From Escherichia coli (GTDB lineage Bacteria > Pseudomonadota > Gammaproteobacteria > Enterobacterales > Enterobacteriaceae): DNA of 64,000 nucleotides. This document shows, in pieces, positions 39,301-42,300 of the stretch. How positions within the stretch are numbered: the stretch's first letter is position 1; the number at the start of each line of letters is the position of its first letter. The stretch lies in NCBI RefSeq assembly GCF_011045215.1, contig NZ_CP049201.1; one strand, given 5' to 3'. A program made the position numbers.

Positions 39301-42300
39301 GCAAACCGCCAGCGAGTTCGGCTGGAATAGTTTTTTAATCAATATTTTTTCTGAAGATGACGCTGCCCGCGCGGCACGTCAGCTGCTTGCCCACCGTCCG
39401 GATGGCATTATCTATACTACAATGGGGCTGCGACATATCACGCTACCCGAGTCTCTGTATGGTGAAAATATTGTATTGGCGAACTGTGTGGCGGATGACC
39501 CAGCGTTACCCAGTTATATCCCTGATGATTACACTGCACAATATGAATCAACACAGCATTTGCTCGCGGCGGGCTATCGTCAACCGTTATGCTTCTGGCT
39601 ACCGGAAAGTGCGTTGGCAACAGGGTATCGTCGGCAGGGATTTGAGCAGGCCTGGCGTGATGCTGGACGAGATCTGGCTGAGGTGAAACAATTTCACATG
39701 GCAACAGGTGATGATCACTACACCGATCTCGCAAGTTTACTCAATGACCACTTCAAATCGGGCAAACCAGATTTTGATGTTCTGATATGTGGTAACGATC
39801 GCGCAGCCTTTGTGGCTTATCAGGTTCTCCTGGCTAAGGGGGTACGTATCCCGCAGGATGTCGCCGTAATGGGCTTTGATAATCTGGTTGGCGTCGGGCA
39901 TCTTTTTTTACCGCCGCTGACCACAATTCAGCTTCCACATGACATTATCGGGCGGGAAGCTGCATTGCATATTATTGAAGGTCGTGAAGGGGGAAGTGTG
40001 ACGCGGATCCCTTGCCCGCTGTTGATCCGTTGTTCCACCTGATATTATGTTAACCCAGTTGCCAGAGTGCTCCATGTTGCACCACAGCCACTCCGTGGGA
40101 GGCATAAAGCGACAGTTCCCGTTCTTCTGGCTGCGGATAGATTCGACTACTCATCACCGCTTCCCCGTCGTTAATAAATACTTCCACGGATGATGTATCG
40201 ATAAATATCCTTAGGGCGAGCGTGTCACGCTGCGGGAGGGGAATACTACGGTAGCCGTCTAAATTCTCGTGTGGGTAATACCGCCACAAAACAAGTCGCT
40301 CAGATTGGTTATCAATATACAGCCGCATTCCAGTGCCGAGCTGTAATCCGTAATGTTCGGCATCACTGTTCTTCAGCGCCCACTGCAACTGAATCTCAAC
40401 TGCTTGCGCGTTTTCCTGCAAAACATATTTATTGCTGATTGTGCGGGGAGAGATAGATTGATGCTGCTGGCGTAACGACTCAGCTTCGTGTACCGGGCGT
40501 TGTAGGAGTTTGCCATTGCTCTCTGATAGCTCGCGCGCCAGCGTCATGCAGCCTGCCCAGCCTTCACGTTTTGAGGGCATTGGCGATTCCCACATATCCA
40601 TCCAGCCGATAACAATACGCCGACCATCCTTCGCTACAAAGCTTTGTGGTGCATAAAAGTCATGCCCGTTATCAAGTTCAGTAAAATGCCCGGATTGTGC
40701 AAAAAGTCGTCCTGGCGACCACATTCCGGGTATTACGCCACTTTGAAAGCGATTTCGGTAACTGTATCCCTCGGCATTCATTCCCTGCGGGGAAAACATC
40801 AGATAATGCTGATCGCCAAGGCTGAAAAAGTCCGGACATTCCCACATATAGCTTTCACCCGCATCAGCGTGGGCCAGTACGCGATCGAAAGTCCATTCAC
40901 GTAATGAACTGCCGCGATAAAGCAGGATCTGCCCCGTGTTGCCTGGGTCTTTCGCCCCGACTACCATCCACCATGTGTCGGCTTCACGCCACACTTTAGG
41001 ATCGCGGAAGTGCATGATTCCTTCTGGTGGAGTGAGGATCACACCCTGTTTCTCGAAATGAATACCATCCCGACTGGTAGCCAGACATTGTACTTCGCGA
41101 ATTGCATCGTCATTACCTGCACCATCGAGCCAGACGTGTCCGGTGTAGATAAGTGAGAGGACACCATTGTCATCGACAGCACTACCTGAAAAACACCCGT
41201 CTTTGTCATTATCGTCTCCTGGCGCTAGCGCAATAGGCTCATGCTGCCAGTGGATCATATCGTCGCTGGTGGCATGTCCCCAGTGCATTGGCCCCCAGTG
41301 TTCGCTCATTGGGTGATGTTGATAAAACGCGTGATAACGATCGTTAAACCAGATCAGGCCGTTTGGATCGTTCATCCACCCGGCAGGAGGCGCGAGGTGA
41401 AAATGGGGATAGAAAGTGTTACCCCGGTGCTCATGAAGTTTTGCTAGTGCGTTTTGCGCCGCATGCAATCGAGATTGCGTCATTTTAATCATCCTGGTTA
41501 AGCAAATTTGGTGAATTGTTAACGTTAACTTTTATAAAAATAAAGTCCCTTACTTTCATAAATGCGATGAATATCACAAATGTTAACGTTAACTATGACA
41601 TTTTGTGATCGAATATGCATGTTTTAGTTAATCCATGACGATTTTGCGAAAAAGAGGTTTATCACTATGCGTAAGTCAGATGAATTTAAGGGAAAAAAAT
41701 GTCAGCCAAAGTATGGGTTTTAGGGGATGCGGTAGTAGATCTCTTGCCAGAATCAGACGGGCGCCTACTGCCTTGTCCTGGCGGCGCGCCAGCTAACGTT
41801 GCGGTGGGAATCGCCAGATTAGGCGGAATAAGTGGGTTTATAGGTCGGGTCGGTGATGATCCTTTTGGTGCATTAATGCAAAGAACGCTGCTAACTGAGG
41901 GAGTCGATATCACGTATCTGAAGCAAGATGAATGGCACCGGACATCCACGGTGCTTGTCGATCTGAACGATCAAGGGGAACGTTCATTTACGTTTATGGT
42001 CCGCCCCAGTGCCGATCTTTTTTTAGAGACGACAGACTTGCCCTGCTGGCGACATGGCGAATGGTTACATCTCTGTTCAATTGCGTTGTCTGCCGAGCCT
42101 TCGCGTACCAGCGCATTTACTGCGATGACGGCGATCCGGCATGCCGGAGGTTTTGTCAGCTTCGATCCCAATATTCGTGAAGATCTATGGCAAGACGAGC
42201 ATTTGCTCCGCTTGTGTTTGCGGCAGGCGCTACAACTGGCGGATGTCGTCAAGCTCTCGGAAGAAGAATGGCGACTTATCAGTGGAAAAACACAGAACGA

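What the first reader, a model, noticed from the sequence alone, without database searches (positions are those of the whole stretch)
41493..41698. Duplicated perfect palindrome GTTAACGTTAAC flanking a CRP-like site in the cscA-cscK divergent control region
Two identical 12-bp palindromes 64 bp apart bracket a TGCGA-N6-TCACA element. This is what a LacI-family repressor (CscR) with two operators plus catabolite control would look like, and it might allow repression by DNA looping. I recall operator sites being described in this region but cannot confirm that they coincide with these palindromes.
Basis: partly seen in the sequence, partly recalled or inferred. Interest (0 to 1): 0.3.

Follow-up and report, generated by a model that had tools for sequence, protein, structure and literature searches.

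The report
Known CscR operators in csc promoter
The two identical 12-base palindromes are the already published putative binding sites of the sucrose repressor CscR in the E. coli cscA-cscK control region, next to a CRP site, so the finding is real but ordinary.

Summary
GTTAACGTTAAC occurs exactly twice in the window, at 41518-41529 (O1) and 41582-41593 (O2), 64 bp apart, against 0.01 copies expected by chance. A CRP-like site, TGCGA-N6-TCACA at 41563-41578, lies between them, 33 nt from O1 and 3 nt from O2.

The flanking genes are cscA, cscK, cscB and the LacI-family repressor gene cscR. A 2024 paper states that Jahreis et al. (2002) described two copies of a 12-bp inverted repeat in this intergenic region as putative CscR operators, one hit by an up-mutation, plus a CRP site next to the cscA -35. 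No other such repeat exists here.

In 73 loci encoding CscR relatives (48-96% identity), 72 carry the motif beside the csc genes and 57 carry a pair. Spacing is 64 bp in 37 and 62-63 bp in 7.

The best model is two CscR operators on CRP-dependent divergent promoters, with O1 at the predicted cscA start. Looping is untested and disfavoured: CscR lacks LacI's tetramerisation tail, and some lineages have one site or out-of-phase spacing.

Novelty: already known. Interest: low.

The parts
41518..41529 (.). O1, the cscA-proximal CscR operator: perfect 12-bp palindrome GTTAACGTTAAC with a central CG
   Evidence: It is an exact match. It is invariant in 8 Escherichia sequences. It is present, exact or with one mismatch, at the same place in 57 CscR-encoding loci. 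The literature describes a 12-bp inverted repeat here as a putative CscR operator.
41582..41593 (.). O2, the second CscR operator: an identical palindrome 64 bp from O1, lying between the two CRP-like sites
   Evidence: This is the better conserved of the two copies, exact in 42 of the 57 paired loci.
41560..41581 (.). CRP1, a CRP-cAMP site: AAATGCGATGAATATCACAAAT, core 41563-41578, centre 41570.5
   Evidence: The core matches 9 of 10 positions. Its offset of +45 from the O1 start is fixed in every 64-bp locus, and the TCACA half is highly conserved. The literature places a Crp site next to the cscA -35 and reports cAMP dependence.
41601..41622 (.). CRP2, a second and weaker CRP-like site: core TGTGATCGAATATGCA at 41604-41619, centre 41611.5
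   Evidence: It matches 7 of 10 core positions here. At the same offset (+86) other genera match 8 to 10 of 10: Pluralibacter, Rosenbergiella, Rahnella, Providencia L062 and the Klebsiella group. PMC3938415 cites Sabri 2013 for two cAMP-CrpA sites in the bidirectional promoter.
41537..41542 (-). Predicted -10 of PcscA (TATTTT on the minus strand). The inferred transcription start is about 41529-41530, the first base of O1.
   Evidence: This is inference from geometry. With CRP1 at -41.5, the start falls at the edge of O1 (sequence). It agrees with the statement in PMC11251922 that the downstream operator overlaps the start site. A simple consensus scan finds no strong sigma-70 promoter, as expected for an activator-dependent promoter. 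The start site has not been mapped.
41660..41665 (+). Candidate -10 of PcscKB (TATCAC)
   Evidence: This is inference. TATCAC or TATCAA is conserved at this offset in Escherichia, Citrobacter amalonaticus, Pluralibacter and Rosenbergiella. It would put CRP2 near -61.5 (class I). Confidence is low.
40050..41483 (-). cscA, sucrose hydrolase (GH32), 477 aa
   Evidence: Pfam Glyco_hydro_32N and 32C. RefSeq annotation in the 99.7% identical strain 88-3493.
41699..42613 (+). cscK, fructokinase, 304 aa
   Evidence: NCBIfam fructokinase equivalog, 505.7 bits against a cut-off of 450. Pfam PfkB.
42685..43932 (+). cscB, sucrose:H+ symporter, 415 aa
   Evidence: Pfam LacY_symp, E = 2.6e-193.
39047..40042 (+). 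cscR, LacI-family repressor, 331 aa, convergent with cscA
   Evidence: Pfam LacI HTH plus Peripla_BP_1. RefSeq CDS in strain 88-3493. It aligns to LacI residues 5-329 and has no C-terminal tetramerisation segment.

Best explanation
The 206-bp region is the bidirectional control region of the E. coli chromosomal sucrose (csc) regulon.

The two GTTAACGTTAAC palindromes are operators for the LacI-family repressor CscR, which is encoded just past the 3' end of cscA, convergent with it. Each is an even palindrome with a central CG, of the kind bound by one LacI-type dimer.

Two CRP-cAMP sites supply catabolite control. CRP1 is at 41560-41581 and a weaker CRP2 is at 41601-41622.

The inferred layout for cscA, read on the minus strand, is O2 (centre about -58.5), CRP1 (-41.5, class II), a weak -10 (TATTTT), then O1 covering +1 to +12. 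CscR bound at O1 would therefore block RNA polymerase at the start site.

O2 abuts CRP1 (3 bp between the cores) and lies 10 bp from CRP2. CscR bound there most likely interferes with CRP-dependent activation of both divergent promoters, and it serves as the cscKB-side operator.

Inducer (sucrose or a product of it) releases CscR, and cAMP-CRP then activates transcription.

Shown or reported: the sites exist and are conserved; CscR represses cscA and cscKB in vivo; expression depends on cAMP; an operator point mutation derepresses.

Inferred: the start sites, the class II and class I geometry, and the division of labour between O1 and O2.
For: Sequence. There are two exact copies against 0.01 expected. 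Both are invariant in 8 Escherichia sequences while the neighbouring spacer varies.

Genes. The regulator has a LacI-family HTH and sugar-binding domain, and the neighbours are a GH32 invertase, a fructokinase and a LacY-type permease.

Literature.
- PMC11251922 reports two copies of a 12-bp inverted repeat between cscA and cscK as putative CscR operators. One is the site of an up-mutation, they flank the -35 and -10 of PcscA with the downstream one over the start site, and a Crp site lies next to the -35.
- PMC3938415 reports cscA and cscKB operator sites, a recurrent operator mutation, two cAMP-CrpA sites, and a cyaA::Tn5 mutant that cannot use sucrose.
- PMC7486766 reports that an EHEC isolate with a deletion removing cscR expresses cscA 58-fold, cscK 156-fold and cscB 28-fold higher, and that a cscAp reporter is derepressed in a delta-cscR strain.
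- PMC4052901 reports that LacI-family sites are typically even palindromes with a central CG and that about 20% of regulated operons have more than one site.

Comparative.
- In 73 loci encoding CscR relatives (48-96% identity; Enterobacterales, Orbaceae, Aeromonas) there are 153 sites with at most 1 mismatch, against 3.1 expected from base composition.
- 72 of the 73 loci have at least one such site, and most of these sites lie in the intergenic regions beside the csc genes.
- 57 loci have a pair.
- The module O1-N33-CRP1-N3-O2-N10-CRP2 keeps its lengths while the N33 sequence diverges freely.
- The module keeps its orientation whether the right-hand gene is cscK, cscB or cscR.
Against: I could read no direct binding data (EMSA, footprint or ChIP) for CscR or CRP on these sites. 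The primary papers, Jahreis 2002 and Sabri 2013, are not held. No held paper prints the sequence GTTAACGTTAAC, so the identity with the published operators rests on there being no other candidate repeat.

The start sites are unmapped, and no consensus sigma-70 promoter is detectable.

If PcscKB really starts near 41672, O2 sits at about -85, upstream of CRP2. Simple steric occlusion of RNA polymerase could not then explain repression of cscKB.

The two secondary sources differ on which operon the operator mutation affects: cscA in PMC11251922, cscKB in PMC3938415.
Confidence: 0.85

Rival explanations
1. Cooperative repression by DNA looping. CscR bound at O1 and O2 forms a dimer-of-dimers that loops out the 52-bp spacer carrying PcscA and the CRP-bent site. 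Both operators would then be needed for full repression, and their 64-bp spacing would be selected for helical phase.
For: The spacing is strongly conserved (64 bp in 37 and 62-63 bp in 7 of the 57 paired loci) while the N33 spacer sequence is saturated with substitutions. At 10.5 bp per turn, 63-64 bp is 6.0-6.1 turns, which puts the sites on the same face. The CRP bend between the operators could help a short loop, as described from established knowledge for NagC at nagE-nagB. A single operator mutation is reported to have a growth phenotype.
Against: CscR (331 aa) ends where LacI residue 329 aligns, so it lacks LacI's C-terminal tetramerisation helix (one search gives the same picture from PDB chains). 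Seven Providencia loci (L011-L016, L063) have a single strong site. Proteus pairs at 68-69 bp (6.5-6.6 turns) and Gilliamella pairs at 57 bp (5.4 turns) are out of phase. The fixed spacing is explained equally well by promoter geometry: CRP at -41.5, O1 at +1 and O2 butted against CRP1. From memory, unverified: LacI loops in vivo show maxima near 59.5 and 70.5 bp, so 64 bp is not an optimum.
Confidence: 0.15
2. CytR-like anti-activation complex. CscR at O2 is sandwiched between CRP at CRP1 and CRP at CRP2 and contacts them, turning the activators into part of a repression complex for both divergent promoters.
For: O2 lies between two CRP-like sites whose offsets (3 nt and 10 nt) are invariant across genera. 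The best-scoring named NCBIfam model for CscR is CytR, at 137 bits, far below its 436-bit cut-off and only slightly above GntR and RbsR. The model would explain how an operator at about -85 could repress a class I PcscKB.
Against: The CRP centres are 41 bp apart, not the 52-53 bp of CytR-regulated promoters (established knowledge). That leaves only about 19 bp between two 22-bp CRP sites, so competition is more likely than cooperation. CscR's operators are perfect high-affinity palindromes, unlike CytR's weak, CRP-dependent sites. The resemblance to CytR is a weak family-level score, and no CRP-contact residues were examined.
Confidence: 0.1
3. The palindromes act as nucleic-acid structure (an RNA stem or a DNA cruciform formed by O1 pairing with O2) rather than as protein-binding sites.
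For: The minus strand of 41505-41610 folds at -26.6 kcal/mol, z = -5.3, with an O2:O1 12-bp stem enclosing two hairpins.
Against: That fold is a by-product of three palindromes, and the plus strand gives z = -0.95. In 41 of 57 paired loci O1 and O2 differ and are not mutually complementary, so there is no compensation. If cscA starts at O1, no transcript spans both sites. There is no Rfam match: the best is 13.8 bits against a gathering score of 60.
Confidence: 0.02

Closest known systems
The csc regulon control region of E. coli EC3132 / W (CscR operators and Crp site; Jahreis et al. 2002, Sabri et al. 2013, as reported in PMC11251922 and PMC3938415)
   Same: It is the same locus with the same gene order. 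It has the same two 12-bp inverted repeats between cscA and cscK and the same Crp site next to the cscA -35. The region is 95-99.7% identical in 2663 of 5426 complete E. coli genomes.
   Different: Nothing of substance differs. The window carries one private SNP, T at 41629, outside all the sites. CRP1 reads TGCGA here and in the other E. coli strains compared, but TGTGA in two divergent Escherichia (L001, L002).
ScrR operators of the scrY promoter (pUR400 / Klebsiella; Cowan 1991, Jahreis and Lengeler 1993, as reported in PMC11251922)
   Same: [quoted passage not shown] The downstream operator lies over the start site, and there is a CRP site.
   Different: The repressor belongs to a different orthologous group, since sucrose is controlled by at least 11 LacI-family groups. 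The repeats are 14 bp with a different sequence, they serve one promoter rather than a divergent pair, and the scr CRP site is poorly conserved.
lac / gal operon looping repressors (LacI tetramer; GalR with HU)
   Same: These are LacI-family repressors with more than one operator and a CRP site in the control region.
   Different: CscR lacks LacI's tetramerisation helix. The operators are 64 bp apart, and both lie within the promoter region rather than at a distant auxiliary position. Looping has not been shown.
CytR-CRP nucleoprotein complexes (deoP2, cdd)
   Same: A LacI-family repressor site lies between two CRP sites.
   Different: The CRP spacing is 41 bp rather than 52-53 bp. The operator is a perfect palindrome, a second operator lies at the start site, and there is no evidence of CscR-CRP contact.

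Membership tests
LacI-family (CscR) operator | Even palindrome with a central CG pair | tested here: met
   GTTAAC|GTTAAC is a perfect 12-bp palindrome centred on CG. PMC4052901 gives this as the family hallmark. The family's sites are usually 16-22 nt; here symmetry stops at 12 bp, although the repeat extends to 17 nt.
LacI-family (CscR) operator | Lies in the promoter region of the regulated genes, typically 30-140 bp upstream of a start codon | tested here: met
   The O1 edge is 34 bp from the cscA ATG at 41483. The O2 edge is 105 bp from the cscK ATG at 41699. The range is taken from PMC4052901.
LacI-family (CscR) operator | Co-occurs with the cognate regulator gene across genomes, whatever the gene order | tested here: met
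   72 of 73 CscR-relative loci carry a site with at most 1 mismatch beside the csc genes. There are 153 sites against 3.1 expected, in at least four gene arrangements.
LacI-family (CscR) operator | Direct, inducer-sensitive binding by the repressor; operator mutations derepress | not testable with these tools
   Only second-hand reports are available: an operator point mutation up-regulates expression and allows growth on low sucrose, and loss of cscR derepresses cscA, cscK and cscB. I found no EMSA or footprint in the held literature.
CRP-cAMP binding site | Match to TGTGA-N6-TCACA | tested here: met
   CRP1 matches 9 of 10 core positions and, by my own count on the sequence, 16 of 22 of the full consensus. 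CRP2 matches 7 of 10 here and 8-10 of 10 in other genera.
CRP-cAMP binding site | Placed at an activating position (-41.5, -61.5 and so on) relative to a mapped start site | tested here: inconclusive
   The start sites are not mapped. The geometry fits -41.5 for PcscA if transcription starts at the first base of O1, and about -61.5 for PcscKB if TATCAC is its -10. Both are inference.
CRP-cAMP binding site | cAMP/CRP dependence of expression | not testable with these tools
   This is reported in the literature: csc expression is cAMP-CrpA dependent, and a cyaA::Tn5 mutant cannot use sucrose.
DNA-looping repressor system (LacI / GalR type) | The repressor can bridge two operators, through a tetramerisation domain or a partner protein | tested here: not met
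   The CscR C-terminus aligns to LacI residue 329. There is no counterpart of LacI 330-360, which holds the tetramerisation helix. A partner-assisted bridge of the GalR/HU type cannot be excluded.
DNA-looping repressor system (LacI / GalR type) | Operator spacing keeps helical phase across relatives | tested here: inconclusive
   Spacing is 62-64 bp in 44 of the 57 paired loci, which is in phase. It is 57 bp in Gilliamella (4 loci) and 68-69 bp in Proteus (9 loci), about half a turn off. The conserved spacing is confounded with promoter geometry.
DNA-looping repressor system (LacI / GalR type) | Both operators are required | tested here: inconclusive
   Seven Providencia loci (L011-L016, L063) have one strong site only, so a pair is not obligatory in the family. 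This says nothing direct about E. coli.
CytR-type anti-activation | Repressor site between tandem CRP sites 52-53 bp apart, with a weak operator that depends on CRP | tested here: not met
   The CRP centres are 41 bp apart (41570.5 and 41611.5), and the operator is a perfect palindrome.

The most novel reading that the evidence does not exclude
The fixed module O1-N33-CRP1-N3-O2-N10-CRP2 is held to within about 1 bp in roughly ten genera while its spacer sequence drifts freely. This may reflect an obligate higher-order repression complex rather than two independent operators. The complex could be a short CscR-CscR loop around a CRP-bent promoter, or a CscR-CRP sandwich at O2 that switches off both divergent promoters at once. 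If so, a dimeric LacI-family repressor without a tetramerisation domain would be shown to use a roughly 64-bp loop or CRP contacts.
Probability: 0.15. Interest if true: 0.4.

Novelty: already known. Interest (0 to 1): 0.12.

Why it matters
It matters mainly as a check: the scan correctly re-found a published regulatory element from raw sequence.

The practical value is modest. The csc region is widely used to engineer sucrose-utilising production strains, and cscAp read-through controls dsdA in EHEC variants that have lost cscR (PMC7486766). Exact coordinates for O1, O2 and both CRP sites are therefore useful for promoter engineering.

The comparison across genera adds a well-defined, length-constrained module that could be used to test whether a dimeric LacI-family repressor cooperates over 64 bp or competes with CRP.

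Tried and rejected
- Primary papers. Jahreis 2002 (PMC135337 and its DOI) and Sabri 2013 (PMC3553775) are not held. No held paper contains the string GTTAACGTTAAC. The link to the published operators therefore rests on secondary descriptions and on the absence of any other repeated 12-bp inverted repeat.
- Promoter and terminator scan. The sigma-70 and terminator consensus scan of 41400-41800 found nothing. This does not help to place the start sites.
- RNA or cruciform reading. It is rejected. The minus-strand z of -5.3 is built from the palindromes, the plus strand gives z = -0.95, there is no Rfam match, and there is no compensation between O1 and O2 in 41 of 57 pairs.
- Chance. It is rejected.
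- CRP site significance. The site is not significant on window statistics alone. It is accepted only because its offset is conserved.
- Cra/FruR box. I considered whether the palindrome could be a Cra/FruR box. By inspection it differs from TGAAACGTTTCA at three positions of each half-site, and the motif tracks cscR, not fru genes, so I rejected this.
- HpaI sites. Each palindrome is two tandem HpaI sites (GTTAAC). I found no evidence of any restriction-modification role and did not pursue it.
- PcscKB start. I tried to place a cscKB promoter overlapping O2, using TATGAC at 41594-41599 as the -10. That hexamer is not conserved outside Escherichia and gives CRP1 a non-canonical position of -35.5, so I rejected it.
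Full report
**Observation**

The sequence is as described. GTTAACGTTAAC is its own reverse complement. It occurs exactly at 41518-41529 (O1) and 41582-41593 (O2), 64 bp start to start. These are the only exact copies in the 64-kb window. Dinucleotide-preserving shuffles give a mean of 0.01 copies, and none of 100 shuffles has two.

The repeat extends to 17 nt, AATTGTTAACGTTAACT and AAATGTTAACGTTAACT, but symmetry stops at the 12-bp core.

TGCGATGAATATCACA lies at 41563-41578. It is not central: it is 33 nt from O1 and 3 nt from O2. On window statistics alone a CRP-like site with one mismatch is unremarkable (5 found, 2.0 expected).

**Context**

The neighbouring genes are these:

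| Gene | Coordinates | Size | Identity |
|---|---|---|---|
| dsdA | 37252-38580 (-) | 442 aa | D-serine ammonia-lyase |
| dsdX remnant | 38598-38816 (-) | 72 aa | C-terminal fragment |
| cscR | 39047-40042 (+) | 331 aa | LacI HTH plus sugar-binding domain |
| cscA | 40050-41483 (-) | 477 aa | GH32 invertase |
| cscK | 41699-42613 (+) | 304 aa | fructokinase, above the NCBIfam cut-off |
| cscB | 42685-43932 (+) | 415 aa | LacY-type symporter |

RefSeq annotation of the closest complete genome, strain 88-3493 (99.7% identical), agrees. The region is chromosomal and present in 2663 of 5426 complete E. coli genomes at 95-99.7% identity.

**What the literature says**

PMC11251922 states that Jahreis et al. 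(2002) identified two copies of a 12-bp inverted repeat in the cscA-cscK intergenic region as putative CscR operators.
- They flank the -35 and -10 of the cscA promoter, with the downstream one over the transcription start.
- A putative Crp-cAMP site lies next to the -35.
- The repeats and the Crp site are conserved in five species.

PMC3938415 refers to the cscA and cscKB operator sites. It also mentions a recurring spontaneous operator mutation that permits growth on low sucrose, two cAMP-CrpA sites in the bidirectional promoter (citing Sabri 2013), and a cyaA insertion that abolishes sucrose use.

PMC7486766 shows that an EHEC isolate with a deletion removing cscR expresses cscA 58-fold, cscK 156-fold and cscB 28-fold higher. 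It also shows that a cscAp reporter is derepressed in a delta-cscR strain.

I could not open the two primary papers, and no held paper prints the motif. The palindrome pair is, however, the only repeated 12-bp inverted repeat in this intergenic region. The published operators are therefore these sites.

**Independent comparative test**

I fetched 80 loci around relatives of CscR from one genome per species. Seventy-three of them are CscR relatives at 48-96% identity, from Enterobacterales, Orbaceae and Aeromonas.

- Across these 1.16 Mb there are 153 sites within one mismatch of the palindrome, against 3.1 expected from base composition.
- 72 of the 73 loci have at least one such site, and most of these sites lie in the intergenic regions beside the csc genes.
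- 57 loci have a pair.
- Spacing is 64 bp in 37 paired loci, 62-63 bp in 7, 57 bp in 4 (Gilliamella) and 68-69 bp in 9 (Proteus).

In every 62-64 bp locus except the two Tatumella loci (L006, L061) the same module appears: O1, 32-33 nt, a CRP-like site, 3 nt, O2, 10 nt, and a second CRP-like site.

The 33-nt spacer is unrecognisably different between genera, yet its length is held.

The module always has the same orientation. O1 faces the leftward catabolic operon (cscA, or a transporter followed by cscA). O2 and CRP2 face whatever lies to the right: cscK, cscB or cscR.

Within Escherichia both palindromes are invariant while nearby spacer positions vary.

In the window the second CRP-like site is TGTGATCGAATATGCA at 41604-41619. 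It matches 7 of 10 core positions here and 8-10 of 10 in other genera.

**Mechanism**

The part that is well supported is this: CscR represses both divergent transcription units through these palindromes, and cAMP-CRP activates them.

The geometry is my inference.
- If CRP1 (centre 41570.5) acts as a class II activator at -41.5 for cscA, transcription starts at about 41529, the first base of O1.
- A weak -10 (TATTTT, 41542 to 41537 on the minus strand) is then correctly placed.
- O1 then covers +1 to +12, and O2 is centred at -58.5.
- This matches the second-hand description.
- No consensus sigma-70 promoter is detectable, which fits dependence on an activator.

For cscKB, the best conserved element downstream of CRP2 is TATCAC/TATCAA at 41660-41665. 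As a -10 it would place CRP2 near -61.5 (class I) and O2 near -85.

That leaves open how O2 represses cscKB. The simplest idea is interference with CRP. The 22-bp CRP1 site abuts the O2 core, and only about 19 bp separate the two CRP sites.

**Looping**

The conserved 63-64 bp spacing equals 6.0-6.1 helical turns and is compatible with looping. Three results argue against treating looping as the explanation.
- CscR ends where LacI residue 329 aligns, so it has no equivalent of LacI's C-terminal tetramerisation helix (consistent).
- Seven Providencia loci have a single strong site.
- The Proteus and Gilliamella pairs are about half a turn out of phase.

The fixed spacing is also what promoter geometry alone would impose. 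I put looping at about 0.15.

A CytR-like sandwich of CscR between two CRP dimers is a further possibility. The CRP spacing is 41 bp rather than 52-53 bp, and the operators are perfect palindromes, so I put it at about 0.1.

**Rejected readings**

The minus strand of 41505-41610 folds with z = -5.3, but that fold is assembled from the palindromes themselves.
- The plus strand gives z = -0.95.
- Nothing in Rfam matches.
- In 41 of 57 pairs the two sites differ without any compensating change.

The sites therefore behave as protein-binding half-site pairs, not as a stem.

**Verdict**

The finding is already known: Jahreis 2002 and Sabri 2013, with conservation shown in 2024. My additions are exact coordinates, the second CRP-like site, and a wider view across genera of a length-constrained module. 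Interest is low.

Noticed in passing
window 41604-41619: A second CRP-like site, TGTGATCGAATATGCA, lies 10 nt to the right of O2. Its offset is conserved in all 63/64-bp loci, and its match is stronger (8-10 of 10) in other genera. The two CRP centres are 41 bp apart with O2 between them.
   Followed up: yes
window 41660-41665: TATCAC (TATCAA in Citrobacter amalonaticus and Pluralibacter) is the best conserved element between CRP2 and cscK. It is a candidate -10 for PcscKB, which would place CRP2 at about -61.5 and O2 at about -85.
   Followed up: partly
window 41629: The window has a private SNP here: T where seven other Escherichia sequences have A (AGTTAAT versus AGTAAAT). It lies outside the operators and CRP sites, and no complete E. 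coli genome is 100% identical over 41440-41760.
   Followed up: partly
window 41530-41562: An imperfect AT-rich inverted repeat (TTTATAAAAATAAAG ... CTTACTTTCATAAA) lies between O1 and CRP1. It was seen only in the E. coli-type sequences, spans the predicted -10 of PcscA, and contributes to the minus-strand fold (z = -5.3).
   Followed up: partly
window 38598-38816 (-) and 37252-38580 (-): dsdX is reduced to a 72-aa C-terminal remnant, dsdA is intact, and no dsdC gene lies between cscR and the dsdX remnant. This is the known csc/dsd exchange at this hot spot. PMC7486766 shows that deletions removing cscR put dsdA under cscAp read-through in EHEC.
   Followed up: partly
window 38861-40042 (+): The mechanical ORF call extends cscR upstream to a TTG at 38861 (393 aa). 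The real start is ATG 39047 (331 aa), as in RefSeq for strain 88-3493. Similarly, the cscA ORF runs to 41492 but the annotated start is 41483.
   Followed up: yes
L028, L032, L033, L039, L042, L044, L046, L064, L071 (about 7700-7840): Gilliamella and Orbaceae loci carry an extra pair of CscR-type sites only 14 or 20 bp apart between cscB and cscR. Most also have the 57-bp pair, or at least one strong site, between cscA and cscK; L032 and L046 have no cscA or cscK hit.
   Followed up: no
L018-L026, L068 (Proteus) and L011-L016, L063 (Providencia): The Proteus pairs (68-69 bp, each site with one mismatch) have no CRP1. They do have TTGACT-17-TATGTT pointing rightwards into O2, which suggests a rewired promoter. 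The Providencia loci keep only one exact site.
   Followed up: partly
window 44524-45573 (-): The ORF downstream of cscB is weakly like a formate/nitrite-transporter family protein. The otherwise near-identical strain 88-3493 has a TnpB/InsQ gene at the corresponding place, so the right flank of the csc island differs between strains.
   Followed up: no
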